Source: Pseudonocardiaceae bacterium (GTDB taxonomy: Bacteria; Actinomycetota; Actinomycetes; Mycobacteriales; Pseudonocardiaceae). Taken from it: a stretch of 64,000 nt of DNA. Made by a program: the position numbers and the translations under genes. The stretch spans positions 11,041-75,040 of the forward strand of contig DASUGU010000036.1 in the NCBI GenBank assembly GCA_036273855.1, written 5' to 3'. Shown here in pieces: positions 2,531 through 18,174 of the stretch (position 1 is its first letter; every line of letters starts with the position of its first letter). The notes under the pieces were generated by a model that was given only the letters and a program-made list of their open reading frames with translations, was not told the DNA's origin and did not search any database.

Positions 2531-2743
2531 CGCTCCACCTGTCTGCCTCGCCCCCGAACGCTCACGTCGATACGCAGCGTCAATCAGACTGTAGCCACGT
2601 GAGGGACTATATGCCCGGCGCGCATAGAACTCATGCGTCTGAGGCACTTACGCCCCTCAAGCCGACTCCATAGCGTCACAGCAGGTGGGCCGCATACCCG
2701 CACTGATGCCACGAGACGCCGGAGGACGCGAAGGTGCTTCACA

Positions 2744-3127
2744 ATGGATGACTTGTCGTACGGGCACAGGCGCACTGTGCGCGACTATCGCCTGGCACTT
2801 GGGCTGGCTATCACCCACATGAGGGAATCTGCCGACTGCTCCGTGAAGCAGATCTCTGCTCGCACGCGGATTCCAGAGCAAACGTTGCGCAGCTACGAGC
2901 ATGGAGACTCTCAACCGCCGCTGCCTCGACTGCTCCAGGTGGCGCGGGTGCTCAGCGCATCTGCATTCGATCTCCTGACCGACACGTCGAAATACATCTA
3001 CCGAACACGCGGTCGGCCGTTTCCGGAACCTGATAGCGCATGTCGGGCGAAACTGTCGGCCATATTGCTGTACTGCGGAGCATCACTAGATGACATTGAT
3101 GAGATGCTGAACCACGAGAACTTTTGA
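2744..3127 (+). CDS. XRE-family HTH protein
   Basis: The ATG at 2744 is in frame with ORF 2633..3127. HTH-like segment: CSVKQISARTRIPEQTLRSYEHGDSQPPLPRLLQVARVL. It is divergent from the 1166..2530 regulator. Confidence 0.6.
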   Translation: MDDLSYGHRRTVRDYRLALGLAITHMRESADCSVKQISARTRIPEQTLRSYEHGDSQPPLPRLLQVARVLSASAFDLLTDTSKYIYRTRGRPFPEPDSACRAKLSAILLYCGASLDDIDEMLNHENF

Positions 3128-3372: not shown

Positions 3373-3545
3373 TCGACCCGGTCTCCTTGGTCTTCCTTCT
3401 GATCATCGCCGTGTGCGTGCCTGCCGTGGCCTATCTGGCTCCACAGGACCCGACAGTGGTCCGACTTGTCAGCGCAGTGAGCCAGCGGCGCCGACACCGC
3501 CGGACGCGACGGTGGGTCGCCCATCAGCGAGGTGACCGACGATGA
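3369..3545 (+). CDS. small predicted membrane protein (58 aa)
   Basis: Hand-translated: VIDPVSLVFLLIIAVCVPAVAYLAPQ... followed by an Arg-rich tail. One hydrophobic helix. It has a GTGA overlap upstream and an ATGA overlap (3542-3545) downstream. It is below the size cut-off of the ORF track. Confidence 0.3.
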   Translation: MIDPVSLVFLLIIAVCVPAVAYLAPQDPTVVRLVSAVSQRRRHRRTRRWVAHQRGDRR

Positions 3546-3778
3546 GCTTCGACACCGGTGGCTACCGGACGCGGTGGACGGTGCCCTGTGCGGATTTGAT
3601 CGGCCACGAACGACGGGTCGTGATCAGTCCAGCCAGCGACGGGTCAGCCCTGTTGATTGCACTGCCGTCCGACACCGTCCGAGTCACCGAGGAACAGGCG
3701 CTGGAGATGGCCGCAGACCTGGTGAAAGCCGTGCACGAGATCCTTCCGGACAACGAAGAAGCGGAGAGAACGCCGTGA
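3542..3778 (+). CDS. hypothetical protein (78 aa)
   Basis: ORF in track (MSFDTGGYRTRWTVPCADLIGHERRVVISPASDG...). It is overlap-coupled on both sides. Confidence 0.4.
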   Translation: MSFDTGGYRTRWTVPCADLIGHERRVVISPASDGSALLIALPSDTVRVTEEQALEMAADLVKAVHEILPDNEEAERTP

Positions 3779-4062
3779 GCCGACCATTGGATGACGGCGC
3801 AATCGCCGCGATACTCGCCTCGATCGGTGCCCAGGTCCGTGACGCGCGCAAGGCGCGTGGGTGGTTCCTCGCCGACATTGCGGCGTTGCTTGGCCTGTCC
3901 CCCTCGGTGCTCTGCCGTCTGGAGCTGGCACGACGTGAGCCGAGCCTGCACCAGGTGATCAGCGCCTGCGCTGTGCTAGGGAAGCGATTCAGCGACGTGG
4001 TCCGACAGGCCGAAGACGACGCGTTCCCGCTCGGCTCCGGCCCATGGGACACGCCAATCTGA
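3775..4062 (+). CDS. XRE-family HTH protein (95 aa)
   Basis: The GTG at 3775 overlaps the TGA of the preceding ORF. HTH-like segment: WFLADIAALLGLSPSVLCRLELARREPSLHQVISACAVLG. Confidence 0.6.
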   Translation: MSRPLDDGAIAAILASIGAQVRDARKARGWFLADIAALLGLSPSVLCRLELARREPSLHQVISACAVLGKRFSDVVRQAEDDAFPLGSGPWDTPI

Positions 4063-4252
4063 GGTTGATTCAGCGTTCTCCACCGGAACCGGTGCCGGAC
4101 CGTTCCATGATTCCGCGATGGCCTGTTGCGCGGCAGCTGCACTACCGACGTCGCCTCATTTCACCCGTTCGGCCGGCGACTATCCCTACGAGCGCATTCG
4201 ATGATGGTCTGTACTAGTGCCTCTGGCTCATCAAAGAAAAGGAAGGTACAAG

Positions 4253-5182
4253 ATGACATCGCCCTTGTCTTTCGTGTGGCTAGAGGTAACGGGAAAATGC
4301 CAGCTCACGTGTGCGCATTGTTACGCCGACTCCGGGCCGCGTGGAACGCATGGGAATATGAAAGGTCGGGACTGGCTTCGGGTGATCAATGAGGCTGCCA
4401 CATTGGGCGTTCAAATGGTGCAGTTCATCGGCGGGGAACCGACGATGCATCCGGAACTTCCCGATCTGATCAACGGTGCACTCGCGAGTGGCCTTGAAGT
4501 CGAGGTCTACACCAACCTCGTTCATGTGCGCCAGGAGCTTTGGGAGACCTTCGAACAACCAGGCGTGCGCCTCGCCACGAGCTACTATTCAGATGAACGC
4601 TCTCAGCACGAGACGATTACGAAGCGGCGCGGCAGTTACTCGCGCACCAAGGCCAACGTCATCGAAGCGTTGCGGCGGTCAATTCCCATTCGAGTCGGAA
4701 TAGTGGAGACCCATGACGATCAGCGGGTCGAGCAGGCCCGTGCGGAACTAGAATCCCTCGGCCTGACCGATATCGGCAGTGACAGACTGCGGCAGGTCGG
4801 ACGCGGCATCCGTGACCAAGCCGCCGGCCTCGCCCAGTTATGCGGCAACTGCGCTTCCGGTGTCCTAGCTGTGTCTCCACATGGCTTTGTGTGGCCCTGC
4901 GTATTCTCTCGTTGGTTGTCCATAGGCAACGTACGGGATTCTTCGCTGACTGAGATACTGGCGGGTAGTCGACTTAGCAACGTACGCAGAGACCTGTTGG
5001 AACACTTCCAACAACGGCCAACACACTCCACCTTCTCGGCGTGTAACCCGGATTGCAACCCTCATTGCAACCCATGTAACCCAGGGTGCTCGCCCTATAA
5101 CGCGCCATGCAATCCTGCATGTTCGCCAAGTTGTAGTCCCACCTGCAACCCGACCAATTGCCGACCGCGCTGTTTACCCTAA
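4253..5182 (+). CDS. radical SAM / SPASM-type enzyme with Cys-rich C-(N/S)-P-x repeat tail
   Basis: The ATG at 4253 follows AAAGGAAGG. It has CQLTCAHC (CX3CX2C), the GGEP motif, and the SPASM first half C-x10-G-x4-C (CASGVLAVSPHGFVWPC). The last 46 residues carry 11 Cys. Confidence 0.85.
   Translation: MTSPLSFVWLEVTGKCQLTCAHCYADSGPRGTHGNMKGRDWLRVINEAATLGVQMVQFIGGEPTMHPELPDLINGALASGLEVEVYTNLVHVRQELWETFEQPGVRLATSYYSDERSQHETITKRRGSYSRTKANVIEALRRSIPIRVGIVETHDDQRVEQARAELESLGLTDIGSDRLRQVGRGIRDQAAGLAQLCGNCASGVLAVSPHGFVWPCVFSRWLSIGNVRDSSLTEILAGSRLSNVRRDLLEHFQQRPTHSTFSACNPDCNPHCNPCNPGCSPYNAPCNPACSPSCSPTCNPTNCRPRCLP
5042..5179 (+). repeat. 12-nt periodic coding repeat (TGY-AAY/TCN-CCN-NNN) encoding the Cys tail
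   Basis: tgtaacccggat tgcaaccctcat tgcaaccca tgtaacccaggg tgctcgccc... encodes CNPD CNPH CNP CNPG CSPYNAP CNPA CSPS CSPT CNPTN CRPR CLP. Confidence 0.8.
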
Positions 5183-5835
5183 GTAACGACGAAACCGATC
5201 TCGGCTGCCAGTTGGCCGGACAATGCCATCGCTTGCTCTCCAGTGATCACGGCACCAGTCATAGTCAACAAGCCAGACGCGCCCCTGAGAAACGAGCGCG
5301 TCAGGTCACAATTCATTGCGTTCCGTGCCTGAAATTCCGCGCCCTTGAAGTCGCATTCGGAGAACACCATCTTGGATAGATCACCGCCGAGCACAGCCTC
5401 CTTGAAGGTACAGCGATAGAAGACAATTATCCCACGGTGCTGCTCGATGTCAACATTTGAGTAATCGAGCCGGCAGCCTTCGAAGTAGAAATCCTCTGCC
5501 CTCGTCACGCCAAGTTGCAGGCCGACCGCTTGACAATCGATCACTTCCACTCGACGCGCCGTGACCCGTTCCCAAGACGAGTTGGGCAACGAAACCTGCC
5601 GAAACGCAACATCCATCAATTCGAGATCGGTGAATCGCGACTCCGCCAAGGATCCTTGTGACAAAACCACATGCCGCAGCGAGCCCTGACCCCTAACCCC
5701 GACCTGATCGACATCTTCAACCTGGCATTCGTCATAGTCAAAATGACCAGACAACGAGATGTCAGAAGGCGACAGCTCCTCGATATCGAGGATAGGACAC
5801 CTTATTGACTCGTCACCGACCGTGCGGAACTCCAT
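5179..5835 (-). CDS. pentapeptide-repeat protein
   Basis: 218-aa ORF with runs fitting A(D/N)(L/F)xx, for example CTFKEAVLGGDLSKMVFSECDFKGAEFQARNAMNCDLTRSFLRGASGL. Its stop overlaps the stop of the convergent radical SAM gene. Confidence 0.75.
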   Translation of the reverse strand: MEFRTVGDESIRCPILDIEELSPSDISLSGHFDYDECQVEDVDQVGVRGQGSLRHVVLSQGSLAESRFTDLELMDVAFRQVSLPNSSWERVTARRVEVIDCQAVGLQLGVTRAEDFYFEGCRLDYSNVDIEQHRGIIVFYRCTFKEAVLGGDLSKMVFSECDFKGAEFQARNAMNCDLTRSFLRGASGLLTMTGAVITGEQAMALSGQLAAEIGFVVT

Positions 5836-6205
5836 GTCCGCATTCTACAACTCGTGACGGACTCAGGTGAGCCAAGTACAAGACCTCGGCGGTCAGTTGG
5901 CACGGCGGTGCAGCAGGCAGCACTCAACAGGACGTGCTTCACCGGCGCCGCGCCTTGAGTGCGCTCAGCCGCCTCGCACCGGCGGAATCTCCGCCTAACG
6001 GTAGGCGTCAATGGCGATAAGGCTTATGGGGCACCACAAACGGAGAATAGTGCTCCAAGCTATGACAATACGGCCCACCTCCGCAGACACAGCGTTATAC
6101 GCCGGTGTCGATGCCAGCACCACACGAAGCCATGGTCCGCTGACCCATGATCCGCATCACCAGCAGACGTCTCACCAAACTCGGTATAGGAACGGACGCT
6201 GACTG

Positions 6206-7171: not shown

Positions 7172-7183
7172 ACTGCCATCTTG

Positions 7184-7211
7184 CCACTTGGCTGTTGATC
7201 ACGCCAAGTGG
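7184..7211 (-). other. 9-bp stem hairpin between the KwaB-like and DUF4238-like genes
   Basis: ccacttggc / gccaagtgg with a 10-nt loop, 13 nt upstream of the DUF4238-like ATG. Confidence 0.4.
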
Positions 7212-7350: not shown

Positions 7351-8250
7351 CTACCTTCTACGCGCTTTGCGGGCAGCAGCATATTGCTCGCCTGAGAAGT
7401 CACCGGTCCAGAGGTCTTCGTTGAGCAACAAGAGAATGTCTTTCTCTGTGTCTCTGGTGATGACAAGCTCATCGTCGCTCATGAGAAGACTAGGATCGAG
7501 CCCTCTTTCGCGCATCTTCACCTTCAGTACATCCGGCGTCAATGTAGGAAGGTAGTCACTCTTCAGAATACTGAGCACCTTACGGCGCATCACGCTAGTT
7601 TCGCGAAGTCGCTTCGCCAACCATTCCTTTCCCTCACCGGAGATCGGCAAGGCCCTTGCGAGGTCGCCCACCCACTCGGCTGTCTTCGCGAGAACCGCTT
7701 CACTTTCCTTAAAGATGGCTTCAAAATTGTTTTGGTTTAGAATTGACACGGAACCGGGAAAGATTACGACGTCGTAAGTGTCATCGAAGGCAAGCAACGG
7801 CTGTTCAACCCGAGTCAATGTCTGGTCAAACAGAGCCACAAGGCCCTTCCTGGCAAGCTGGACTGGATTCCGTCGTCTCACGAAGGCAGCCAGATTTTCT
7901 GGATCACGCCCTATGACAAGCGCATACAGCGCCAAGGACCGAGTCCGCAAATCATCCAATGAAACCAACGGCAGTGAGGCGCCTCGCTGAATCACCTCAA
8001 GAAGTGCGGTGTCCAGGAGTTCGTCAAGGCCAGCGTCCAGATGAACAGTTTCGTCATCTTGCTCATCGTTGGGATCGTAGGCTCTTCCTTCATTAGAGGC
8101 GATCTTCGCTAAAGCATCGTTGGCGTACTGTCGCAAGCTCGCAAGTACAGACCCTCCAGCTTTCACAACCCGTCCGTGGGCGTTCTTGCCCGTGCGCCAA
8201 GCCACCACGAGCGATGCCGGAGCACTCAAGTCAAGTTCAGCAACTGCCAT
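7351..8250 (-). CDS. kwaB: KwaB-like protein (DUF4868) of a Kiwa-type defence pair
   Basis: 299-aa ORF placed 18 nt after a 4-TM protein gene. The segment PLLAFDDTYDVVIFPGSVSILNQNNFEAIF matches my recollection of the DUF4868 core. The size and gene order fit kwaA-kwaB. Confidence 0.5.
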   Translation of the reverse strand: MAVAELDLSAPASLVVAWRTGKNAHGRVVKAGGSVLASLRQYANDALAKIASNEGRAYDPNDEQDDETVHLDAGLDELLDTALLEVIQRGASLPLVSLDDLRTRSLALYALVIGRDPENLAAFVRRRNPVQLARKGLVALFDQTLTRVEQPLLAFDDTYDVVIFPGSVSILNQNNFEAIFKESEAVLAKTAEWVGDLARALPISGEGKEWLAKRLRETSVMRRKVLSILKSDYLPTLTPDVLKVKMRERGLDPSLLMSDDELVITRDTEKDILLLLNEDLWTGDFSGEQYAAARKARRR

Positions 8251-8268
8251 GCCCGTCCTGTCGACTGC

Positions 8269-8796
8269 CTACACCCCAGTTGATAGCGCACGTTGGCCTC
8301 GTGGCGTCCGGTCGATCAGTACGTCGTCTCGGAACCGCGTAGCTTCGATAAGTTGGCCCGAGTCTAGGCGCCGCCGCGTAACCAGATAGGCACGTAGCCC
8401 GTGCGTGTCCGTCACTTGTAGCACACGGTAGCCGCAAACGTATAGCAGCGGGTTGATCTGCACTACGGAAGAGTGAAGGTGGATTGACGCGGCCACGGCC
8501 AAGAACGCTCCGTAAGCAACCACGTCGCGGACACTGGGTGTAGAAACCGTCAAAAACGGCAACAGATAGCCGCCCAGGTACGCTCCGGCCTCGGACCCCG
8601 CATCTCGAATCATCTTCAGTTCGTGTGCACCCGGTGCCGATCGCGAGTCCAGTTTAAAGAGCAAGAACAGTGCAGCCACGCCCAGAGCGGCCATGCTGCC
8701 ACAGACGATCACTAGCCAGCCCTGCGTGAACCGGATAGCCAACAGTGCAAAAAGGGGAGAATAGGATGAAAGGAACATCAGCGGCTTGCCAAGCAT
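8269..8796 (-). CDS. kwaA: KwaA-like four-helix membrane protein
   Basis: ORF 8269..8823. The ATG at 8796 is preceded by CCGGAGGGGCC. There are four hydrophobic helices and then a soluble tail of about 60 aa. It lies immediately upstream of the DUF4868-like gene. Confidence 0.45.
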   Translation of the reverse strand: MLGKPLMFLSSYSPLFALLAIRFTQGWLVIVCGSMAALGVAALFLLFKLDSRSAPGAHELKMIRDAGSEAGAYLGGYLLPFLTVSTPSVRDVVAYGAFLAVAASIHLHSSVVQINPLLYVCGYRVLQVTDTHGLRAYLVTRRRLDSGQLIEATRFRDDVLIDRTPRGQRALSTGV

Positions 8797-8822
8797 GGCC
8801 CCTCCGGCGTCTGCGCTGCACA

Positions 8823-8838
8823 TCGAACGTATGTTCGA
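8823..8838 (-). promoter_or_regulatory. perfect actinobacterial LexA (SOS) box upstream of the kwaA-like gene
   Basis: TCGAACGTATGTTCGA equals the consensus TCGAAC-N4-GTTCGA and lies 27 nt upstream of the ATG at 8796. A CATAAT -10-like hexamer (minus strand, 8843..8838) overlaps its edge. Confidence 0.7.
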
Positions 8839-8975
8839 TTATGCTGGTCTGGTCCGACAGAGATCGGGGGAACAGTGCAGAGGCGTTTGGACCCTGCATG
8901 AGCATCCGAGCACCAGGGAGTGTGCCATCCCGTTCACCGAAGGAAGGACAACGACCGACCCCATGGCGACACCTG

Positions 8976-9113
8976 TCAAGGGCGGTAACAATAGGGTTTC
9001 AAATACAAGTCGGTCTCGGTGAAGTCGCAGCGTTCGAACGTGACGCCTCGCCACTCGTGACCGGGCAGTTCGGCGTCGGTGAACAGTTCGTCGACGATGG
9101 TCTCGTCGGTCAC
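8976..9113 (-). pseudogene. 5' fragment of a host pentapeptide-repeat gene truncated by the island
   Basis: The GTG at 9113 overlaps the USP stop (GTGA). It reads VTDETIVDELFTDAELPGHEWRGVTFERCDFTETDL in GC-rich codons. It then runs into AT-rich sequence (YLKPYCYRP) and stops. Confidence 0.6.
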
Positions 9114-9559
9114 GGCACGACCACGACCGGGCGGGTGGCGTGGGCCAGCAGGGATTTCGGGACCGTGCCGAGTAGTCCACCGCGGTGGCGGGATCGGCCG
9201 ACCACGATGCAGTCGGCCCGCCGCTGTTCGGCGATCGCCTCCAGCACCAGTGCCGGTTCACCCTGCCCGTAGAGCATCTCCCAGGCGACACCGCGCTCGT
9301 CGAGCAGCGGCCCGGCCTGCTCACGCAACTCCTGGACGTACTCGGCGGCCGCGTCGGTCGCGGCGGCGCCGCTCATCGCGGTCCAGTAGGCCGGGCTGGA
9401 CAGCACCTCGACGTAGACCACCAGCAGCACACCGCGTTCCCGGCGGGCCAGGCCGGCCGCCCAGGCCGCCGCGTGGGTGGACGGTGGGCTGCCGTCATAG
9501 CCGAGCACGACGGCGCCGACGCCGTCCTTGCCGATCTCGAAAGGAGTCTCCGCGGCCAC
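9110..9559 (-). CDS. universal stress protein (UspA family)
   Basis: 149-aa ORF with VVLGYDGSPPS...ADCIVVGRSRHRGGLLGTVPKSLLAHATRPVVVVP, typical of the USP ATP-binding fold. Confidence 0.85.
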   Translation of the reverse strand: MAAETPFEIGKDGVGAVVLGYDGSPPSTHAAAWAAGLARRERGVLLVVYVEVLSSPAYWTAMSGAAATDAAAEYVQELREQAGPLLDERGVAWEMLYGQGEPALVLEAIAEQRRADCIVVGRSRHRGGLLGTVPKSLLAHATRPVVVVP

Positions 9560-9620
9560 GGGAGCGATCGTAGATGGCGGGCGGAAAATCCGGCGACGGC
9601 CCGATGATCACGATGCCACG

Positions 9621-10334
9621 ATGGCCACCATGACCAGCACCGAACCGAGCGCCTACGACGAGATGGCCGCCGACTACGCCGAGTCCAACACCACCAACGC
9701 GTACAACGGACTGTACGAACGACCGGCATCGCTCGCCCTGCTCGGCGACGTCGCCGGGCAGCGGGTGCTGGACGCCGGGTGCGGGCCGGGCCGGCACGCG
9801 GCGGAGCTGGTCGCCAGGGGCGCCACCGTCACCGGGCTGGACGCCAGCGCCGGGTTGCTGGCCGAGGCCCGCAAGGTGCTCGGCCAGGACGCCGACCTGC
9901 GCGTCGCCGACCTGGTCGAGCCGCTTCCGTTGCCGGACAACACTTTCGACGCGGTGCTGGGATCGCTGGTGATGCACTACATCGAGGACTGGGTACCGAC
10001 TCTGCGGGAGTTCCACCGGGTGCTGGTGCCCGGCGGGCGGTTCGTCATGTCCACCCATCACCCGGCGATGGACCACGCACTGTCCGGTCGGGACAACTAC
10101 TTCGAGACCTACCTGTGGTCCGAGGTGTGGCAGCGGGGTGGGCGGGACGTGACGATGTCGTTCTGGCACCGGCCGCTGCACGCCATCACGGACGCACTGA
10201 CCGCCGGGGGCTTCCAGCTCGACGTGTTGAGCGAGCCGCAGCCGGTGCCGGCCGCGAAGGAACTGTTCCCCAGGGACTGGGCGGTGCTCACCACCGCACC
10301 CCGGTTCCTGTTCCTCGCGGCCCACGCGAGCTGA
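9621..10334 (+). CDS. class I SAM-dependent methyltransferase
   Basis: The ATG at 9621 is in frame with ORF 9528..10334. It has motif I VLDAGCGPGRH and the post-I motif VTGLDAS. Confidence 0.85.
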   Translation: MATMTSTEPSAYDEMAADYAESNTTNAYNGLYERPASLALLGDVAGQRVLDAGCGPGRHAAELVARGATVTGLDASAGLLAEARKVLGQDADLRVADLVEPLPLPDNTFDAVLGSLVMHYIEDWVPTLREFHRVLVPGGRFVMSTHHPAMDHALSGRDNYFETYLWSEVWQRGGRDVTMSFWHRPLHAITDALTAGGFQLDVLSEPQPVPAAKELFPRDWAVLTTAPRFLFLAAHAS

Positions 10335-10337
10335 CCC

Positions 10338-10517
10338 CTACCGGGGCACGATGACCATGCGCAGGCCGACCTCGACGAGCAGCCAGCCGATGCGCTGTCG
10401 GGAGGGCGATCGGGGATGTCGTCGGGTCAGGCGGGGCAGCGATCGCGCTGCCATCGCCGCCGTTCGGACTTCGGCGTAGCGCTCGCGGGCCAGGGCTTCG
10501 GTGCAGGCGGGATTCAT
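10338..10517 (-). CDS. small hypothetical protein (59 aa)
   Basis: The ATG at 10517 lies within ORF 10338..10790 and is divergent from the ArsR-type gene. No family recognised. Confidence 0.25.
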   Translation of the reverse strand: MNPACTEALARERYAEVRTAAMAARSLPRLTRRHPRSPSRQRIGWLLVEVGLRMVIVPR

Positions 10518-10536
10518 CACGTTGTGCAAACTACTC

Positions 10537-10570
10537 CTTGCAAGCCGATGCTTGCAAGCATATATTTGCA
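10537..10570. promoter_or_regulatory. tandem palindromic operator-like repeats in a divergent promoter
   Basis: CTTGCAAG at 10537-10544 and again at 10551-10558 (the second sits in the 10-bp palindrome GCTTGCAAGC). A TTTGCAT follows at 10565-10571 in an AT-rich stretch just upstream of the ATG at 10574. Confidence 0.4.
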
Positions 10571-10573
10571 TAC

Positions 10574-11224
10574 ATGACGGGAGAGATGCCGCAACGCCAC
10601 CACCCCTGGCTCGAGTCGGCGGACGACACGGTGCTCGCGGACACCGCGATCCTGCAGGCAGTCGCCCACCCGCTGCGGATCCGGCTGCTCGGCCTGTTGC
10701 GGCTGCACGGCCCGTCGACCGCCACGAAACTGGCGGCCCAGGTCGGCGAATCCTCCGGCCTGACCAGCTACCACCTGCGCAACCTGGCATCCGCCGGGCT
10801 CGTCACCGACGCCGAACCGGACGATCTCGCCGGCATCCGGCAGACCGGCGGCCGCGAGCGATGGTGGAAGGCGGTCCACCGGTTCACCTCTGTGCCGGCC
10901 ACCCCGGCGCCCGGCGACGAGACGTCCGAGGCGGTCCGGGAGGACTACGTGCGGACCATGCTGGCGAACTACTCGGGCGCGTCGCAGCGCTGGCTGGCGA
11001 CCGCCCACGCCTGGCCCAAACAATGGCGGGACACGGCCGGGTTCAGCGACGTGATCCTCCAGCTCACCCCGGACGAAGCGATCCGCCTGCAGCAGGAGAT
11101 CTACGAGCTCACCGCCAAGTACCGCAGGCACCAGCCCGGTGGGACCGTCGAACCGGACCAGGCGATCATCGCGGCGCAGTTCCTGGTGTTCCCCCACCCG
11201 GACCAGGAGCCGCCGCCCGGCTGA
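10574..11224 (+). CDS. ArsR-type winged-helix transcriptional regulator
   Basis: ATG at 10574. It has ILQAVAHPLRIRLLGLLRLHGPSTATKLAAQVGESSGLTSYHLRNLASAGLV (ArsR HTH_20-like) plus a C-terminal extension. Confidence 0.75.
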   Translation: MTGEMPQRHHPWLESADDTVLADTAILQAVAHPLRIRLLGLLRLHGPSTATKLAAQVGESSGLTSYHLRNLASAGLVTDAEPDDLAGIRQTGGRERWWKAVHRFTSVPATPAPGDETSEAVREDYVRTMLANYSGASQRWLATAHAWPKQWRDTAGFSDVILQLTPDEAIRLQQEIYELTAKYRRHQPGGTVEPDQAIIAAQFLVFPHPDQEPPPG

Positions 11225-11230
11225 ACCGGA

Positions 11231-14200
11231 TCAGCGGAAGTCCCGCGACTTGGTCATGGCCACCTTCATGTCCAGCGGCCGCAACTGGTCGGCGACCAGG
11301 CTCAGCGCCCCGTCCACGTTCTCCAGCACGCCACGCACCAGCAGCGCCTTGCTGTTCCTGGCGGTCCTGCGGTACCGGGTCCACAGGCCGGGCGAGCAGA
11401 CCACGTTGACCATGCCGGTCTCGTCCTCCAGGTTCACGAACGTCACGCCGCCCGCGGTGGCCGGGCGCTGCCGGTGGGTGACGGCACCACCGACCAGCAC
11501 CCGGGTACCGGACGGCACGCCGAGCAGTTCGGCCGCGCGCAGCGCACCGATCTCGGTGAGGTGTTCGCGGACGAACTCGGTGGGGAAACTGGTCGGCGAC
11601 AGGCCCAGCGCCCACACGTCGGCGGCCGCCGTCTCCACCACGTCCATGCCGGGCAGCACCGGGGCGTCGACGCCGACGGCCGTGCCGGGCAACCGGTCCG
11701 GCCGGTCCTGGGCCGCGGCACCCGCCGCCCACAGCGCGGCCCGGCGGCCCACGCCCAGACAGTCGAACGCACCCGCCGTGGCCAGCGACTCCCATTGTGG
11801 CGTGGTCATCCGCACCCTGCGGGCCAGGTCGATCAGGCCGGTGTACGGGCCGTGTGCCGCACGTTCCGCGACGATCGTGTCGGCGAGCTGCTCACCGATC
11901 CGGCGCACCCCGGCCAGGCCGAGCCGGACCGCCTGCCCGCCGGTGCTGTCGGCGGCCGGTTCCAGCATGGGATGGGTGCGGCTGGTGTTCAGGTCGGGGT
12001 TGCGCACCACGACACCGTGCCGGCGGGCATCGGCCACCAGCGACTGCGGCGAGTAGAACCCCATCGGCTGGGCGCGCAGCAACGCGGCGCAGAACGCGGC
12101 CGGGTGGTAGAGCTTGAACCAGGCACTGGCGAACACCAGGTGGGCGAAGCTGAACGCGTGGCTCTCCGGGAAGCCGAAATTGGCGAACGCCAACAGCTTC
12201 TGGTAGATCCGCTCGGCCAGGTCGCCGGTGATCCCGTTGCGGGCCATGCCGTTGAACAACCGGTCCCGCAACCGTTCCATCCGGGCCGTGGACCGTTTGG
12301 CGCCCATCGCCCTGCGCAGCTCGTCGGCGTCCCCGGCGCTGAACCCGGCCACGTCCACCGCGATCTGCATCAACTGCTCCTGGAACAGCGGCACGCCCTT
12401 GGTCTTCTCCAGCGCGTTGCGCATCAGCGGATGGTCGTAGTCCCACTTCTCTTCCTCGTTGTGCCGCCGGATGTACGGGTGCACCGAGCCGCCCTGGATC
12501 GGGCCGGGCCGGATCAGCGCCACCTCGACCACCAGATCGTAGAACTTGCGTGGCTTCAGCCGGGGCAGGGTGGCCATCTGCGCCCTGCTCTCCACCTGGA
12601 ACACGCCCACCGAGTCGGCCCGGCACAACATGTCGTAGACCTCGCTGTTCTTGAGGTCCAGCGCGGCGATGTCGACCGGGATGCCCTCGTGTTCGGCGAC
12701 CAGCTCGGTGGCGTAGCGCAGGGCGGACAGCATGCCCAGGCCGAGCAGGTCGAACTTGACCAGACCGGCGGCGGCGCAGTCGTCCTTGTCCCACTGCAGC
12801 ACGCTGCGGTCGGCCATCCGCGCCCACTCCACCGGGCACACCTCGCTGACCGGCTGGTCGCAGATCACCATGCCGCCGGAGTGGATGCCCAGGTGCCGGG
12901 GGAAGTCCTCGACGTCGGTGGCCAGCCGCACCACGTCCGCCGGGACGTCGTCGAAGTCCTGCTGCGCCTGCCGGACCGGACCCCAGCGGTCCACCTGCCG
13001 GGACCAGGCGTCCTGCTGCCCGGTGGAGTAGCCCAGCGCCTTCGCCATGTCCCGCAGCGCGGACCGGCCCCGGTAGGTGACGACGTTGGCCACCTGGGCG
13101 GTGCAGAGCCGGCCGTACGTCCGGTAGACGTGCTGGATGGCCTCCTCCCGCCGGTCGGACTCGATGTCCAGGTCGATGTCCGGGTAACCGGCGCGTTCCG
13201 GCGACAGGAACCGCTCGAACAGCAGCTTGTGCTCGACCGCGTCCACCTTGGTGATGCCCAGCGCGTAGCAGACGGCCGAGTTCGCGGCCGAACCCCTGCC
13301 CTGGCAGAAGATGCCGTTGCTCTCGCAGAACCGGACGATGTCCCAGACGATCAGGAAGTAGCCGGGGAAGCCCAGGTCCTTGATCACCTTGAGCTCGTGT
13401 TCCAGCTGCCGGTACGCCTCCGGACTGTCCACCGTCGTGCCGTAGCGGGCGCGGGCCCGCTCGTAGACCAGGTAGGTCAGGAACGTGTCCTCGTCGTGGC
13501 CGTCCGGCACCGGGAACGGCGGCAGCTTCGGCGCGACCAGCGTCAGGTCGAACGCGCACTCCAGGCCCAGCTGGGCGGCCCGGTGCACGGCACCGGGATA
13601 GCGGCGGAACCGGTCGGCCATCTCGGCGCCGGACCGCAGGTAGGCCATCGGTGCCGGCGGCAGCCAACCGTCCATTTCGGACAGACTGCGGCGGGCCCTG
13701 ACCGCGGCCAGTGCGGCGGCCAGCCGACCCCGGGCCGGGTGCGAGTAGTGCACGGCGTTGCTGGCCACCGTGGGCAGGCGCAGGTCGGCGGCGATGCCGG
13801 CGAGCAGGTCGTTGCGCTCGGTGTCCCCCGGCACGCCGTGGTCGACGAGCTCCACGTAGACGTGGTCGCGGCCGAACCGGTCGGCGAGGAAGCGCAGCTC
13901 GTCGGCAGCGGCGGCCGGACCGGACTCGGCCAGCGCCCTGCGGACCGGGCCCTTGCGGCAACCGGTCAGCACGGCGCAGTAGTCGCGCATCTCCTCCACG
14001 ACCTCGTCGTCGACCACCACCTCCTCGACGTCGACCATCTCGTCCACGATCTCGTCCACGTAGTAGAGCGGTCTGCCCTTCTCGGTGTCCTTGGTGTCCG
14101 GCAGGTCCGGGGTGCGGCCGAGATGGCCGGTGGTGATGGTGCGGCACAGTCGCCGGTAGCCCTCCTGGCCCCTGGCCAGCAGCACGAGATGGTCACCGAC

Positions 14201-14623
14201 CGGGTCGGCGACGCCGTTCTGCGGTTCGGGCAGGCCGAAGCTCAGCTCGGCGCCGTACGCGGTGTGCACACCCAGTTCCTTGGCCGCCTCGGCGAACCGC
14301 ACCACCCCGTACATGCCGTCGTGGTCGGTCAGCGCGATCGCGTCCAGGCCCAGCCGGGCGGCCTGCTCCACCAGTTCCTCGGGGTGGCTGGCGCCGTCCA
14401 GGAAACTGAAGTTGGAGTGGCAGTGCAGTTCGGCGTAGGGGACGCGCTCGGCGCCCGGGCGGTCCGTCGCCGTCGGCCGGATCTCCGGCGGCGACTCGTA
14501 CTCGGTGCGCCTGCGCGTCCAGGCGGGGCTGTCCCCGCCGTCACCCGAACCGGGCGGTGCGGGCCGACCGGACAGCGCGCGTTCCAGGTCGGCCCACCGC
14601 ACGGGCGGGTTGTTCCAGCCCAT
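11231..14623 (-). CDS. dnaE2: error-prone DNA polymerase III alpha subunit DnaE2
   Basis: The start MGWNNPPVRWADLERAL matches the DnaE2 N-terminus. It has the PHP motif YAELHCHSNFSFLDGAS and polIII alpha motifs throughout. The ORF is open to 14839. Confidence 0.9.
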   Translation of the reverse strand: MGWNNPPVRWADLERALSGRPAPPGSGDGGDSPAWTRRRTEYESPPEIRPTATDRPGAERVPYAELHCHSNFSFLDGASHPEELVEQAARLGLDAIALTDHDGMYGVVRFAEAAKELGVHTAYGAELSFGLPEPQNGVADPVGDHLVLLARGQEGYRRLCRTITTGHLGRTPDLPDTKDTEKGRPLYYVDEIVDEMVDVEEVVVDDEVVEEMRDYCAVLTGCRKGPVRRALAESGPAAAADELRFLADRFGRDHVYVELVDHGVPGDTERNDLLAGIAADLRLPTVASNAVHYSHPARGRLAAALAAVRARRSLSEMDGWLPPAPMAYLRSGAEMADRFRRYPGAVHRAAQLGLECAFDLTLVAPKLPPFPVPDGHDEDTFLTYLVYERARARYGTTVDSPEAYRQLEHELKVIKDLGFPGYFLIVWDIVRFCESNGIFCQGRGSAANSAVCYALGITKVDAVEHKLLFERFLSPERAGYPDIDLDIESDRREEAIQHVYRTYGRLCTAQVANVVTYRGRSALRDMAKALGYSTGQQDAWSRQVDRWGPVRQAQQDFDDVPADVVRLATDVEDFPRHLGIHSGGMVICDQPVSEVCPVEWARMADRSVLQWDKDDCAAAGLVKFDLLGLGMLSALRYATELVAEHEGIPVDIAALDLKNSEVYDMLCRADSVGVFQVESRAQMATLPRLKPRKFYDLVVEVALIRPGPIQGGSVHPYIRRHNEEEKWDYDHPLMRNALEKTKGVPLFQEQLMQIAVDVAGFSAGDADELRRAMGAKRSTARMERLRDRLFNGMARNGITGDLAERIYQKLLAFANFGFPESHAFSFAHLVFASAWFKLYHPAAFCAALLRAQPMGFYSPQSLVADARRHGVVVRNPDLNTSRTHPMLEPAADSTGGQAVRLGLAGVRRIGEQLADTIVAERAAHGPYTGLIDLARRVRMTTPQWESLATAGAFDCLGVGRRAALWAAGAAAQDRPDRLPGTAVGVDAPVLPGMDVVETAAADVWALGLSPTSFPTEFVREHLTEIGALRAAELLGVPSGTRVLVGGAVTHRQRPATAGGVTFVNLEDETGMVNVVCSPGLWTRYRRTARNSKALLVRGVLENVDGALSLVADQLRPLDMKVAMTKSRDFR

Positions 14624-14798
14624 CAGCGCCTCAGGCTCCGGTAGCCGTCCTCCGGGCGGCGCTGACGCGGTAACACCAGCGGATGCGGCGTGTCCACGGC
14701 CGGCAGCCAGACAACAGCCGAACCGTCCACATCGGACGTCTCGTCGGCGAGTTCGTGGAACCACCGGACGTCCCGCCGCCGCGGCTCGTCGAATCTCA

Positions 14799-16391: not shown

Positions 16392-17962
16392 CAGCCCACC
16401 TCCACGACGTCTTCGGCGGGGCGGGCCGGCGGGCGGGGTTTCCTGGCGCGGCCTCGGCTCCAGTGGGGTGGAGCGGCCAGGTGCGGCCGGGCCGCCTCGG
16501 CTTCGGGACCGGCCTCGATCGATCCGGCGGGCGAGAGAGGCGGGCGCGGCCGAGCTTCGCCTGCGCCGGCCGGCGCGGGGGCGGCATGCCGTTGAACGGC
16601 GCCGATGCTCGCCAAGCCCGGACCGCTTGTCGGGCCAGGCGGCGGGCCTGCCGGGCGCGACGAGCTGGCCAGGCTCGGCGAGCTGGCCGGGCTCGGCGGG
16701 CTGGCAGCGGCGGCAGGCGAGAGAGCTGGACGCGACCGAGCGGACGAGGAACCTGAGCACGGCGAGCTGGCCGGGCTCAATGAGTTGGCGGCTGCGGCGG
16801 GCGAGAAAGCCGGGCGCGGCGAGTTGGCCGGGCGCGGCGAGCCGATCGGGCTCGGCGGGTTGGTTGCGGCGGCGGGTGAGGGAGCTGGGCGCGGCCGGGC
16901 GGACGGTTCATTGGCCGGCTCGGGGACGCTGGCCAACCCCGGCCGCCGCCCAGCGAGGCGCGCCGCATCGGCCGTTTCGTCGGCCGGTGCCGGCGCGCTG
17001 GTCTGCGCGGCGGGAGCGATCGGATGGATGTCGGAGGCAGCGCGACCGGCCGGGCTCGGCTGGGTGGCCGGCGGTGCGGCGGGAACGGTCGGGTGGGTTG
17101 TGTCCCGGGTTTCGGGGAGGCGGGGGTGATGTGCGGGGAGCAGGACAGGTGGCGACGGCGCGGGGAGGGTCAGGGTGGCTTGGGTGGGGCGGGTGGCGGA
17201 GCCTCGGCCGGTGGTGGTGATGGTCAGGGTGCGGGACTCCAGGTGGCCGTGGCCGTTGCCCAGGCCGGTCCAGCGGCTTTCCCTACAGTCCAGTTCCAGG
17301 TCGGCGCCGGGCCACGGGTCCGCCGTCAGCAGCACCGACTCCCGGTGTCTTGCCCTGGCGGACAGGCGCCTGGCCAGGGGTGCGGGGACGCCGGTGGCCA
17401 CCACCAGGTCCAGCCCGTCCAGCAGGGCCGACACCACGCCACCCAGCTCCGCCCCGGGATCGGGCACCAGGGCCAACCGGGACAGGGCGACACCCAACTC
17501 GGCCGCGGCCAGCAGCCCCAGGTCGGGCATGCCGACCACCGCCGCCCACGAACCGTCCGCCGTGGCCTCGGCGAGCAGCGCCAGCAGCACGGTGGTGGAC
17601 CCGCGCACCACCACCGTGCTGCCCCGCCGCAAACCCCGGTACGGCAACAGGTCCGCCAGCTCCGCGCGAACCGGCAACACCCGGCCCACCGGGCCGACTT
17701 CCACTCCCCGCTGGTGCTGGTCCAGGACCAGCCGGGCCCGCTGCCACTTCAGCGACCCGGCAGCACCATCGGGCTCCGGGACTCCCGGAGCCGACACCGC
17801 GTGCGGCGCCGTGAGCGACGCCAGCGGCGCCACCGCAGACCCGGACACCGGCCACCTCCACCACACAGTCGTGCGCACGCCCCATGCGCACGGACCGCCG
17901 TGGGGAGACGGCGGTGCCGGCTGGTCGAACCCCGACGCCGACCAGACCTCGGTATCGAACAT
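16391..17962 (-). CDS. imuA: ImuA'-like protein with long Pro/Ala/Ser-rich C-terminal extension
   Basis: The RecA-fold-like core LPYRGLRRGSTVVVRGSTTVLLALLAEATADGSWAAVVGMPDLGLLAAAELGVALSRLALVP is typical of ImuA'. The position is first in the imuA'-imuB-dnaE2 cassette. The exact start is uncertain. Confidence 0.7.
   Translation of the reverse strand: MFDTEVWSASGFDQPAPPSPHGGPCAWGVRTTVWWRWPVSGSAVAPLASLTAPHAVSAPGVPEPDGAAGSLKWQRARLVLDQHQRGVEVGPVGRVLPVRAELADLLPYRGLRRGSTVVVRGSTTVLLALLAEATADGSWAAVVGMPDLGLLAAAELGVALSRLALVPDPGAELGGVVSALLDGLDLVVATGVPAPLARRLSARARHRESVLLTADPWPGADLELDCRESRWTGLGNGHGHLESRTLTITTTGRGSATRPTQATLTLPAPSPPVLLPAHHPRLPETRDTTHPTVPAAPPATQPSPAGRAASDIHPIAPAAQTSAPAPADETADAARLAGRRPGLASVPEPANEPSARPRPAPSPAAATNPPSPIGSPRPANSPRPAFSPAAAANSLSPASSPCSGSSSARSRPALSPAAAASPPSPASSPSLASSSRPAGPPPGPTSGPGLASIGAVQRHAAPAPAGAGEARPRPPLSPAGSIEAGPEAEAARPHLAAPPHWSRGRARKPRPPARPAEDVVEVG
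16677..16895 (-). repeat. three degenerate tandem copies (period about 76-84 bp) inside the imuA' 3' half
   Basis: ggcgagctggccgggctc..gcggcggc.ggcgaga.agc recurs starting near 16677, 16761 and 16837. It encodes repeated ...RP.SPAAA..PPSP..SP... units. Confidence 0.65.
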
Positions 17963-17970
17963 ACGTTCGA
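17955..17970 (-). promoter_or_regulatory. perfect LexA (SOS) box at the head of the imuA'-imuB-dnaE2 cassette
   Basis: TCGAACATACGTTCGA equals TCGAAC-N4-GTTCGA. It overlaps the longest-ORF ATG at 17960-17962. Confidence 0.8.
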
Positions 17971-18174
17971 ACCGGGGTCCAACTTACCGTCCGGACCCCT
18001 GGTGTTGTCAACCCGATCACTCGGGCGAGTGAGGAAGTAGCTGCTGGTCAGGGACTCAGCGGGCGAAATGCCTGGTGCCGATCGGGCAGCGAGTGACGCC
18101 AGGCGCTCGACGCCGGGCCGCCCGGCCGGTACCGCTCAGTGAGCGACGGCCCGGTCCCGGTCGGCGGTCAGGAC

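What the first reader, a model, noticed from the sequence alone, without database searches (positions are those of the whole stretch)
8823..8844. Perfect SOS (LexA) box overlapping a -10-like element directly upstream of the Kiwa-like operon
**Seen:**
- TCGAACGTATGTTCGA at 8823-8838 is a perfect match to the actinobacterial LexA consensus TCGAAC-N4-GTTCGA.
- It sits 27 nt upstream of the kwaA-like ATG (which has the GGAGGGG RBS). It abuts CATAAT on the coding strand.
- The only other perfect box in the window heads the imuA'-imuB-dnaE2 mutasome (17955-17970). That box is the exact reverse complement of this 16-mer.

**Inference:**
- A horizontally acquired defence operon appears to be wired into the host DNA-damage regulon.
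- This is noteworthy because Kiwa function has been linked to DNA-end/RecBCD biology.
- I am not aware of SOS control of Kiwa having been described.
Basis: partly seen in the sequence, partly recalled or inferred. Interest (0 to 1): 0.7.

Follow-up and report, generated by a model that had tools for sequence, protein, structure and literature searches.

The report
DNA-damage-controlled promoter of Kiwa defence operon
A two-gene Kiwa anti-phage cassette in an actinobacterium carries a perfect binding site for the DNA-damage repressor LexA on its promoter, and relatives in at least six genera keep it, so this defence is probably switched on by DNA damage.

Summary
TCGAACGTATGTTCGA at 8823-8838 is a perfect actinobacterial LexA box. 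It is one of two in the window, where 100 shuffles gave none. The other precedes imuA'-imuB-dnaE2.

The box starts on the last base of a -10-like CATAAT and lies 26 nt before the kwaA ATG. It sits inside a low-GC island (56% against 72.5%).

I compared 32 non-redundant promoters of related kwaAB cassettes.
- 7 have a perfect box at the same position, 4 have one mismatch and 3 have two.
- The N4 spacers and flanks differ. In seven loci the arms show 0.96 majority identity against 0.48 for flanks.
- All 7 perfect boxes in 238 kb of locus sequence lie upstream of kwaA.
- The neighbouring genes differ, so the box travels with the cassette.

There is a second element. TGTCGG-N10-CATAAT at 8859-8838 matches the published PafBC motif tGTCgg(N10)tA(N3)T, with no -35. 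About 28 of the 32 promoters keep this geometry.

My reading is that kwaAB has a portable DNA-damage promoter. LexA represses it (about 0.8). PafBC activates it (about 0.55).

DUF4238 is not part of the conserved unit. I found no paper linking Kiwa to LexA, SOS or PafBC. Binding and induction are untested.

The parts
8823..8838 (-). LexA (SOS) box. Reads TCGAACATACGTTCGA on the gene strand. It spans about -7 to +9 relative to the predicted transcription start.
   Evidence: Perfect match. None expected in 100 shuffles. The same position is occupied by a box with 0-1 mismatch in 11 of 32 related promoters.
8838..8843 (-). -10 element CATAAT. Its last T is the first T of the LexA box.
   Evidence: Read directly. 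Conserved as (C/G)ATA(A/C)T across the family.
8854..8859 (-). PafBC-type -26 element TGTCGG, 10 nt upstream of the -10. No -35 element is present.
   Evidence: Matches tGTCgg(N10)tA(N3)T of PMC8635444. TGTC at this spacing is kept in 27 of 31 promoters and in four of the six new loci (a fifth has it at N9). No sigma-70-type -35/-10 pair was found.
8829..8833 (-). Predicted transcription start, 6-9 nt after the -10 and inside the LexA box.
   Evidence: Inference from promoter geometry only. It has not been mapped.
8799..8805 (-). Ribosome-binding site GGAGGGG.
   Evidence: Read directly. Purine-rich GGAGG-like sites sit at the same place in the homologues.
8269..8796 (-). kwaA, 175 aa. A membrane-protein component of Kiwa.
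   Evidence: PADLOC KwaA 7e-12. NCBIfam NF041622 at 45 bits, below the equivalog cut-off. Pfam PF28043 is recorded for the identical gene on L001.
7351..8250 (-). kwaB, 299 aa, DUF4868/KwaB domain. It starts 18 nt after kwaA ends.
   Evidence: Pfam PF16162 at 32.3 bits against a cut-off of 26.3. PADLOC KwaB 6e-10. 207 homologues.
17955..17970 (-). Reference LexA box of the host, upstream of imuA'-imuB-dnaE2. It serves as an internal positive control for the motif.
8976..9113 (-). 45-aa N-terminal stump of a pentapeptide-repeat gene that overlaps the stop of the Usp gene. It marks the right edge of the low-GC island.
   Evidence: and the GC profile.

Best explanation
The 22-bp finding is the operator part of a compact, portable DNA-damage-responsive promoter that drives the two-gene Kiwa cassette kwaA-kwaB.

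**Shown from sequence**
- Read on the minus strand, the order is TGTCGG (-28..-23), 10 nt, CATAAT (-12..-7), the LexA palindrome starting at -7, about 26 nt of leader with GGAGGGG, then the ATG.
- There is no -35 element.

**Inferred mechanism**
- In undamaged cells a LexA dimer sits on the palindrome. The palindrome covers the end of the -10 and the transcription start, so LexA blocks RNA polymerase.
- A promoter without a -35 is also not used by the SigA holoenzyme unless the WYL-domain activator PafBC, loaded with single-stranded DNA, bridges SigA region 4 to the -26 element. This is the 'sigma adaptation' mechanism.
- DNA damage or stalled forks, possibly including phage-derived ssDNA, produce RecA filaments that trigger LexA self-cleavage. 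They also produce ssDNA that activates PafBC.
- Because the operator overlaps the PafBC-type promoter itself, the two inputs would act as an AND gate: low basal Kiwa and strong induction under genotoxic stress.

**Likely rationale (speculative)**
- DNA damage triggers prophage induction in the community, so defence is raised in advance.
- KwaB binds DNA non-specifically, so it is kept low otherwise.

**Confidence by step**

| Step | Probability |
|---|---|
| Functional LexA operator | about 0.8 |
| PafBC dependence | about 0.55 |
| AND-gate logic | about 0.4 |
For: **LexA box**
- Perfect box, none expected by chance.
- The same 16-mer class heads the host's imuA'-imuB-dnaE2 operon, a classical LexA target (PMC8682763).
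- The box starts on the last base of the -10 in every related promoter.
- Among 32 non-redundant kwaA promoters, 7 boxes are perfect, 4 have one mismatch and 3 have two. Eleven keep the GAAC-N4-GTTC core.
- Spacers differ: ATAC, CTCT, ATGC, ACGT, GTAC, AGAT, ATGT, ATAG, CTAG.
- In seven box-bearing loci (0-1 mismatch) the arms have 0.96 majority identity against 0.48 in the 24 nt on either side.
- All 7 perfect boxes in 238 kb of locus DNA lie directly upstream of kwaA.
- On a KwaA tree, six of the seven loci then known with 0-1 mismatch fall in one clade of eight, where L004 and L006 have no box. The seventh, L013, lies in the sister clade.

**Cassette-borne, not host-borne**
- The flanking genes differ between loci: Usp here, ArdA, type I HsdR plus IS3, SNF2, XRE elsewhere. 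The box therefore belongs to the cassette.

**PafBC element**
- The geometry fits tGTCgg(N10)tA(N3)T, with the 5' part at -23 to -28 and no -35 (PMC8635444).
- GTC is almost invariant across the family.
- L007 lacks the TGTC element. It has TTGGCG-17 nt-TAAGAT in its place.
- Promoters carrying both LexA and PafBC sites are known for recA, imuA'/B and uvrA (PMC8682763; PMC8223512).
Against: - There is no experimental evidence of LexA or PafBC binding, of the transcription start, or of induction.
- The PafBC motif is weak in information. The relaxed pattern occurs 10 times in the window against 4 expected. Only its conservation and position support it.
- The -10 begins with C or G rather than T.
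- L061 has N9 spacing rather than N10.
- Two members of the box clade, L004/L060 (Nocardia-type) and L006 (Prauserella), and most of the sister clade lack a canonical box. LexA control is therefore not universal.
- Read-through from the upstream Usp gene is not excluded. No terminator was found between them, although the scan was simple.
- In M. tuberculosis some LexA sites bind without regulating, or activate (PMC3381160).
- An E. coli transcriptome survey reports that defence systems are on the whole negatively correlated with recA expression (bioRxiv 10.64898/2025.12.14.694197).
Confidence: 0.7

Rival explanations
1. The palindrome is the operator of another helix-turn-helix regulator, either carried by the cassette or island or belonging to a prophage-type LexA/CI-like repressor. 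It resembles the LexA box only by coincidence.
For: - Palindromes of 16 bp are typical of HTH dimers.
- A small double-HTH gene lies just upstream of kwaA in L003, L005 and L007.
- XRE-type genes occur near several loci, including this island.
Against: - The double-HTH gene is absent from the whole window and from L002 and L013, which carry the box. L014 has too little upstream sequence to tell.
- No regulator gene is consistently linked.
- All 12 specified positions equal the published LexA consensus, and the same 16-mer sits before imuA' in the same genome.
Confidence: 0.08
2. LexA alone controls the promoter. The conserved TGTC element is not a PafBC site. It would be a site for another factor, a UP-like or -35-substitute element, or the conserved left end of the mobile cassette.
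For: - The PafBC motif is information-poor and not enriched on its own in the window.
- Conservation begins abruptly at TTGTC, as expected for a cassette boundary.
- L061 has N9 spacing.
- The -10 starts with C or G.
Against: - The position (-28..-23), the N10 spacing, the lack of a -35 and a near-invariant GTC are the published hallmarks (PMC8635444).
- L007 lacks the element and has a -35-like hexamer, TTGGCG, at 17 nt in its place. This suggests the element does the job of a -35.
- Co-occurrence with a LexA box mirrors known dual DNA-damage promoters.
Confidence: 0.3
3. The box is a non-functional relic or chance palindrome. One version is a leftover promoter of the host gene that the island displaced.
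For: - The island edge, with a truncated pentapeptide-repeat gene, is only about 140 nt away.
- Some close relatives have lost the box (L004, L006).
Against: - None expected by chance.
- The box lies inside the low-GC DNA.
- It recurs at the same nucleotide relative to the -10 in at least 11 independent cassettes with unrelated neighbours.
- The arms are conserved while spacer and flanks are saturated with changes.
Confidence: 0.03
4. LexA binds but does not act as a simple damage switch for defence. It might set a constitutive low level, act positively, or couple Kiwa to a DNA-repair role of KwaB rather than to phage defence.
For: - M. tuberculosis LexA has sites with positive regulation or with no regulation (PMC3381160).
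- KwaB binds DNA, stalls replication forks and shares the Gam inhibitor with RecBCD (PMC11785009).
- The cassette lies 2.4 kb from the mutasome operon, but this adjacency is specific to this genome.
Against: - An operator spanning -7 to +9 is the classical repressing position.
- Kiwa homologues are experimentally anti-phage in E. coli (PMC11785009).
- The cassettes sit in defence or mobile contexts: type I restriction enzyme, ArdA, IS elements.
Confidence: 0.12

Closest known systems
Mycobacterial and Streptomyces SOS boxes (LexA operators), for example before lexA, recA P2, dnaE2 and imuA'
   Same: - Identical consensus TCGAAC-N4-GTTCGA.
- Promoter-proximal position.
- Conserved in orthologous promoters.
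- A box of the same class heads imuA'-imuB-dnaE2 in this very window.
   Different: The regulated genes are a horizontally mobile anti-phage cassette rather than DNA repair or mutagenesis genes. The operator also moves with the cassette between genera.
PafBC-dependent (RecA-NDp) hybrid promoters of Actinobacteria
   Same: A TGTCGG element at -28..-23, 10 nt, a SigA-type -10, and no -35. The GTC triplet is conserved across the family.
   Different: - It drives a defence system. [quoted passage not shown]
- The -10 starts with C or G.
- PafBC binding has not been tested.
- The LexA box overlaps the same promoter. In M. smegmatis recA the SOS box (P2) and the PafBC site (P1) are distinguished as separate promoter elements (PMC8682763).
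DdaA regulon of Moraxellaceae, and WYL regulators next to defence systems (BrxR, CapW/CapH-CapP)
   Same: A DNA-damage-sensing transcription system controls anti-phage systems: Zorya, RM and CRISPR-Cas for DdaA, BREX and CBASS for the others.
   Different: - Here no dedicated regulator gene accompanies the cassette. It appears to plug into the host's two global regulators through cis-elements only.
- The phylum, the defence system (Kiwa) and the motifs all differ.
E. coli Kiwa (KwaA-KwaB supercomplex)
   Same: A two-gene kwaA-kwaB arrangement, with KwaA and KwaB (DUF4868) family matches.
   Different: - The proteins are divergent, below the NCBIfam equivalog cut-offs.
- The mechanism paper (PMC11785009) contains no occurrence of 'SOS', 'LexA' or 'DNA damage' in a term search.

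Membership tests
Actinobacterial LexA operator (SOS box) | 16-bp palindrome TCGAAC-N4-GTTCGA | tested here: met
   12 of 12 specified positions match. Consensus as given in PMC3381160.
Actinobacterial LexA operator (SOS box) | Occurs more often than chance and lies in a promoter region | tested here: met
   No perfect box in 100 shuffles. The box overlaps the -10 and lies 26 nt before the kwaA ATG.
Actinobacterial LexA operator (SOS box) | Conserved in promoters of orthologous genes, with arms constrained and spacer free | tested here: met
   11 of 32 promoters have 0-1 mismatch. Arms 0.96, spacer 0.61, flanks 0.48.
Actinobacterial LexA operator (SOS box) | The host uses this motif for its SOS regulon | tested here: met
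   The same 16-mer class precedes imuA'-imuB-dnaE2 in the window. The lexA gene itself was not looked for in the window.
Actinobacterial LexA operator (SOS box) | LexA binds it, and the gene is induced by DNA damage in a RecA/LexA-dependent way | not testable with these tools
   Needs EMSA or ChIP, and RT-qPCR.
PafBC-dependent (RecA-NDp) promoter | tGTCgg at -28..-23, N10, then tA(N3)T | tested here: met
   TGTCGG-accagaccag-CATAAT at 8859..8838. Eight of nine specified letters match; the -12 position is C.
PafBC-dependent (RecA-NDp) promoter | No -35 consensus | tested here: met
   No sigma-70-type -35/-10 pair in 8200-9200. Columns upstream of TGTC are not conserved apart from an A-rich run.
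PafBC-dependent (RecA-NDp) promoter | GTC triplet strictly conserved among orthologous promoters | tested here: met
   27 of 31, plus four of six new loci at N10 and L061 at N9. L032 keeps cGTC. It is lacking in L007, L012 and L046.
PafBC-dependent (RecA-NDp) promoter | The motif alone is statistically distinctive in this genome | tested here: inconclusive
   The relaxed pattern occurs 10 times against 4.0 +/- 2.2 in shuffles. The strict pattern with TA occurs 0 times.
PafBC-dependent (RecA-NDp) promoter | PafBC occupancy and pafBC-dependent induction | not testable with these tools
   Needs ChIP-seq, a mutant or a reporter.
Kiwa defence system | KwaB with a DUF4868/KwaB domain | tested here: met
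   Pfam PF16162 at 32.3 bits against a gathering score of 26.3. PADLOC KwaB. NCBIfam equivalog NF041623 reaches only 22 bits against 200, so this is a divergent subfamily.
Kiwa defence system | KwaA membrane partner encoded immediately upstream, on the same strand | tested here: met
   13 PADLOC KwaA models hit, best 7e-12. NF041622 at 45 bits against 100. 18-nt gap to kwaB.
Kiwa defence system | Several (four) transmembrane helices in KwaA | tested here: inconclusive
   A simple hydropathy scan passed the threshold only for the N-terminal hydrophobic region, residues 13-50. No dedicated TM predictor was run.
Kiwa defence system | Protects against phage | not testable with these tools
   Needs plaque assays.

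The most novel reading that the evidence does not exclude
A mobile anti-phage cassette carries no regulator of its own. Instead it carries a roughly 40-bp dual-input promoter that plugs into the two conserved global DNA-damage regulators of Actinobacteria: PafBC activation through a -26 element, and a LexA veto through an operator overlapping -10/+1.

Kiwa would then become a member of the DNA-damage regulon in whichever actinomycete receives it. This would be the first case of PafBC, or any WYL factor, controlling phage defence in Actinobacteria. It would also be a natural AND gate for genotoxic stress on a defence system.
Probability: 0.4. Interest if true: 0.75.

Novelty: new variant of a known kind. 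Interest (0 to 1): 0.62.

Why it matters
How bacteria decide when to express costly or self-harmful defence systems is an open question. Known answers mostly involve dedicated neighbouring regulators such as BrxR and CapW, or one lineage-specific global activator, DdaA.

This locus suggests a different solution. Cis-elements for universal host DNA-damage regulators are built into the mobile cassette, so it is regulated correctly after transfer between genera.

It would also add an anti-phage system to the small actinobacterial LexA regulon and to the PafBC regulon. It would link Kiwa expression to genotoxic stress; KwaB binds DNA and shares the Gam inhibitor with RecBCD.

The idea is directly testable in cultured strains that carry a box with 0-1 mismatch: Actinoallomurus oryzae JCM 17933, Amycolatopsis sp. 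V23-08 and Amycolatopsis sp. NPDC052450. It can also be tested with reporter fusions in M. smegmatis, where lexA and pafBC mutants exist.

Tried and rejected
- **Copy of the imuA' box.** The two boxes share no similarity beyond the 16-mer and are in opposite orientation relative to their genes. The ATAC spacer recurs in unrelated cassettes L003, L057 and L058. Rejected.
- **Divergent gene on the + strand regulated by the box.** Only spurious ORFs overlap. The 8839-8975 gap is non-coding and the next real gene (Usp and the stump) is co-directional. Rejected.
- **kwaA start at the ATG at 8823.** The homologues align from the ATG at 8796. Rejected.
- **TTGTCR as a -35 hexamer.** The spacer to the -10 is 11 nt, too short. 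It fits the PafBC geometry instead.
- **DUF4238, pentapeptide and rSAM genes as part of the operon.** None is found next to kwaAB in any other locus.
- **tRNA or structured RNA at the island edge.** No tRNA was found and there were no Rfam hits in the whole window.
- **Phage or prophage origin.** There are no relatives in viral contigs or phage records.
- **A more distant actinobacterial Kiwa.** The Kocuria flava plasmid cassette (41% KwaB identity) has neither element. The promoter is specific to this clade.
- **Conserved 'RTGAT' in the sister clade as an upstream mini-ORF or an N-terminal extension of KwaA.** Frames and stops are inconsistent between loci when read. Not supported.
- **Literature.** Searches for Kiwa, KwaB or DUF4868 with LexA, SOS or DNA damage found nothing relevant. 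The published Cell version of the Kiwa paper is not held, so the preprint was used.

Full report
**1. The observation**

The + strand at 8823-8838 reads TCGAACGTATGTTCGA. A search for TCGAAC-N4-GTTCGA finds two perfect matches in the 64-kb window, this one and TCGAACATACGTTCGA at 17955-17970. None of 100 dinucleotide-preserving shuffles gave a perfect match. With up to two mismatches the count is not above chance, at 4 against 2.2. Only the perfect boxes are informative.

Nothing beyond the 16-mer is similar, and relative to their genes the two sites are in opposite orientation.

**2. The genes**

All relevant genes are on the minus strand.

| Gene | Coordinates | Evidence |
|---|---|---|
| kwaA (175 aa) | 8269..8796 | 13 PADLOC KwaA models, best 7e-12; NCBIfam NF041622 at 45 bits, below the equivalog cut-off |
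| kwaB (299 aa) | 7351..8250 | Pfam KwaB PF16162 above its gathering score; eight PADLOC KwaB models |

- The ATG at 8796 is the real start. The homologues align from this position with the same first residues, most starting with ATG.
- The box at 17955-17970 lies upstream of ImuA' (NF058630, 183 bits), a Y-family-like ImuB candidate and the error-prone polymerase DnaE2 (NF004225, 1479 bits). In mycobacteria this operon is a classical LexA target, co-regulated by PafBC (PMC8682763). It serves as an internal positive control for the motif in this organism.
- A source's name for the identical KwaB protein places the organism in a Pseudonocardiaceae MAG.

**3. Island context**

- GC falls from about 72.5% (9110-20000) to 56% in kwaAB.
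- A 45-aa ORF at 8976..9113 overlaps the stop of a Usp gene. It looks like the N-terminal stump of a pentapeptide-repeat gene. This is the edge of the foreign DNA.
- The box lies about 140 nt inside that edge. No tRNA and no Rfam family is present.

**4. Promoter anatomy**

On the gene strand the sequence reads:

...ctc TGTCGG accagaccag CATAAT CGAAC atac GTTCGA tgtgcagcgcagacgcc GGAGGGG cc ATG

- The last T of CATAAT is the first T of the LexA box.
- The box therefore covers about -7 to +9, if transcription starts 6-9 nt after the -10. This is an inference; the start is unmapped.
- A consensus scan finds no sigma-70-type -35/-10 pair.

**5. Comparative test**

Sources of related kwaAB loci:
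- KwaB has 207 homologues at E <= 1e-5, and the 120 listed are 57-68% identical apart from the query's own cluster and two shorter proteins. The named sources are Actinomycetes.
- A genome scan gave 12 loci.
- A metagenome scan gave 42 loci.
- Six look-ups by exact protein gave 7 more loci, 6 of them distinct.

Box status in the 32 non-redundant promoters with enough upstream sequence:

| Mismatches to the consensus | Loci |
|---|---|
| 0 | window/L001, L002 Actinoallomurus oryzae, L005 Mycobacterium MAG, L007 Amycolatopsis sp. V23-08, L056, L058, L062 |
| 1 | L003 Streptosporangiaceae MAG, L013, L014, L061 Amycolatopsis sp. NPDC052450 |
| 2 | three loci, one of them (L057) only at the outermost positions |

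- Eleven promoters keep the GAAC-N4-GTTC core.
- In every case the box begins on the last T of the -10.
- The N4 spacers differ: ATAC, CTCT, ATGC, ACGT, GTAC, AGAT, ATGT, ATAG, CTAG.
- In seven box-bearing loci the 12 arm positions have a mean majority fraction of 0.96. The spacer has 0.61 and the 24 nt on either side 0.48, which is about what unrelated sequences give. This is the signature of selection on the arms.
- In 238 kb of locus DNA all 7 perfect boxes lie directly upstream of kwaA.
- On a KwaA tree, six of the seven loci with 0-1 mismatch known at that point form one clade of eight, in which L004 (Nocardia) and L006 (Prauserella) have no box. The seventh, L013, lies in the sister clade.

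**6. The box belongs to the cassette**

- None of the window's neighbours (DUF4238, the 218-aa pentapeptide protein, the rSAM/SPASM protein, Usp) is found in any other locus. The MTase gave only one weak partial match, in L039.
- Other loci sit next to ArdA, a type I HsdR with an IS3 transposase, SNF2, XRE genes and others.
- Sequence conservation upstream of kwaA starts abruptly at TTGTC.
- The mobile unit is therefore promoter plus kwaA plus kwaB. DUF4238 is a separate neighbour with its own upstream inverted repeat.
- A small double-HTH gene precedes kwaA in L003, L005 and L007. It is absent from the whole window and from L002 and L013. It cannot be the general partner of the box.

**7. A second DNA-damage element**

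- Nearly all promoters share TGTC(G/A)(T/G)-N10-(C/G)ATA(A/C)T: 27 of 31, and four of six with L061 at N9.
- The published in vivo PafBC motif is tGTCgg(N10)tA(N3)T. Its 5' part lies at -23 to -28, there is no -35, and the GTC triplet is almost invariant across Actinobacteria. PafBC bridges SigA region 4 to this '-26 element' when activated by ssDNA (PMC8635444; PMC11804915).
- The window matches eight of the nine specified letters.
- On its own the motif is not distinctive. The relaxed pattern occurs 10 times against about 4 expected in the window. The argument rests on position and family-wide conservation.
- L007 lacks TGTC and has TTGGCG-17 nt-TAAGAT instead, a -35-like hexamer at canonical spacing. 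This is what one would expect if the element substitutes for a -35.
- Promoters with both a RecA-NDp/PafBC site and an SOS box are known for recA, uvrA, uvrC and imuA'/B.

**8. Mechanism proposed**

- LexA represses by occluding -10/+1.
- PafBC is needed to recruit the SigA holoenzyme.
- DNA damage or stalled forks remove the first block and activate the second.
- Because the operator overlaps the PafBC-type promoter itself, the inputs should combine as an AND gate. This is inferred.
- In M. smegmatis recA the SOS box (P2) and the PafBC site (P1) are distinguished and were mutated separately (PMC8682763).

My estimates are about 0.8 for a functional LexA operator, 0.55 for PafBC dependence and 0.4 for AND logic.

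**9. What remains odd**

- In the sister clade the left half TCGAA(C/T) is kept but the right half is G(C/T)(A/G)TGA.
- Against the strict consensus this is three or more mismatches. Against the S. venezuelae ChIP-seq motif tCGAAC-N4-GNNCGa (PMC9380542) it differs only at the C.
- These may be weak LexA sites, sites for a variant LexA, or something else. I could not decide.
- A Kocuria plasmid Kiwa at 41% KwaB identity has neither element.

**10. Novelty**

- The Kiwa mechanism preprint does not contain the terms SOS, LexA or DNA damage (PMC11785009).
- Full-text searches for Kiwa, KwaB or DUF4868 with LexA, SOS or DNA damage gave nothing relevant.
- DNA-damage control of defence is known elsewhere. 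DdaA controls Zorya, RM and CRISPR-Cas in Moraxellaceae (PMC12392091). WYL regulators sit beside BREX and CBASS. A transcriptome survey mentions LexA among global regulators associated with defence genes.
- This is therefore a new variant of a known kind, not a new category.

**11. Verdict**

Three refinements apply: the wiring is cassette-borne, there is a second PafBC-type element, and DUF4238 is not part of the unit. All functional steps remain to be tested.

Noticed in passing
window 8976-9113 (-): A 45-aa ORF, MTDETIVDELFTDAELPGHEWRGVTFERCDFTETDL..., overlaps the Usp stop codon. It looks like the N-terminal stump of a pentapeptide-repeat gene truncated by the low-GC island. A complete but low-GC pentapeptide gene lies at 5179..5835.
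   Followed up: partly
window 6044-6067 (-): ATTGTCATAGC, identical to the family's -26 element consensus, is followed by CACTAT at N9 or TATTCT at N12. It lies between DUF4238 and the pentapeptide gene. The same stretch was also called terminator-like (6057..6041). It may be a second PafBC-type promoter or the DUF4238 terminator.
   Followed up: no
window 7178-7208 (-): A perfect 9-bp inverted repeat, CCACTTGGC-N-GCCAAGTGG, lies just upstream of the DUF4238 start (7171). This suggests the gene has its own operator or hairpin and is not simply co-transcribed with kwaAB.
   Followed up: no
window 4217-5182 (+): A radical SAM/SPASM protein has an unusual Cys-, Asn- and Pro-rich C-terminal tail (CNPDCNPHCNPCNPGCSPYNAPCNPACSPSCSPTCNPTNCRPRC). 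Its PADLOC hits to pVip look like generic radical-SAM similarity.
   Followed up: no
L008 3-5231; L009 6898-10620; L010 6898-10614; L015 3743-6079 (-); L017 4773-8870: In the sister clade a very large gene (ORFs of about 1,240-1,740 aa where complete) adjoins kwaAB. L009 and L017, the two scanned against Pfam, have NACHT and pentapeptide-repeat domains. L009 also has WD40, and L017 has an N-terminal GntR/UTRA part. It may be a third component or a neighbouring STAND-type defence gene.
   Followed up: partly
L003 4811-5269; L005 3824-4435; L007 about 4917-5291: A small double helix-turn-helix protein (HTH_23, HTH_38 or Sigma70_r4 hits) lies upstream of kwaA on the same strand in three box-bearing loci only. 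It is absent from the window.
   Followed up: yes
sister-clade promoters, e.g. L016 2287-2302, L027 2643-2658, L009 5370-5385: At the LexA-box position the left half TCGAA(C/T) is kept, but the right half is a different conserved sequence, G(C/T)(A/G)TGA(T). This is unexplained. It may be a weak or variant LexA site or another function.
   Followed up: partly
window 17971-18030 (-): The imuA' promoter region has TTGACA, then 18-19 nt, then (G)TAAGT(T). An inverted repeat, GGGGTCC...GGACCCC, brackets the -10, just upstream of the LexA box. I saw no canonical PafBC motif.
   Followed up: no
L013 about 5365-5390: The kwaA leader contains a tandem duplication, gctcacgagat gctcacgagat. This pushes the box to 67 nt from the ATG while it keeps its position relative to the -10.
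   Followed up: no
window 1166-2647 (-) and 2633-3127, 3532-4062 (+): Several XRE-type helix-turn-helix proteins, one of them long and possibly repeat-containing, and a possible creatininase-like ORF fill the left part of the lower-GC region. No integrase was noticed in the part examined. These labels rest on reading the translations and on HTH_31/HTH_3 calls on L001, not on a Pfam scan of these ORFs.
   Followed up: no
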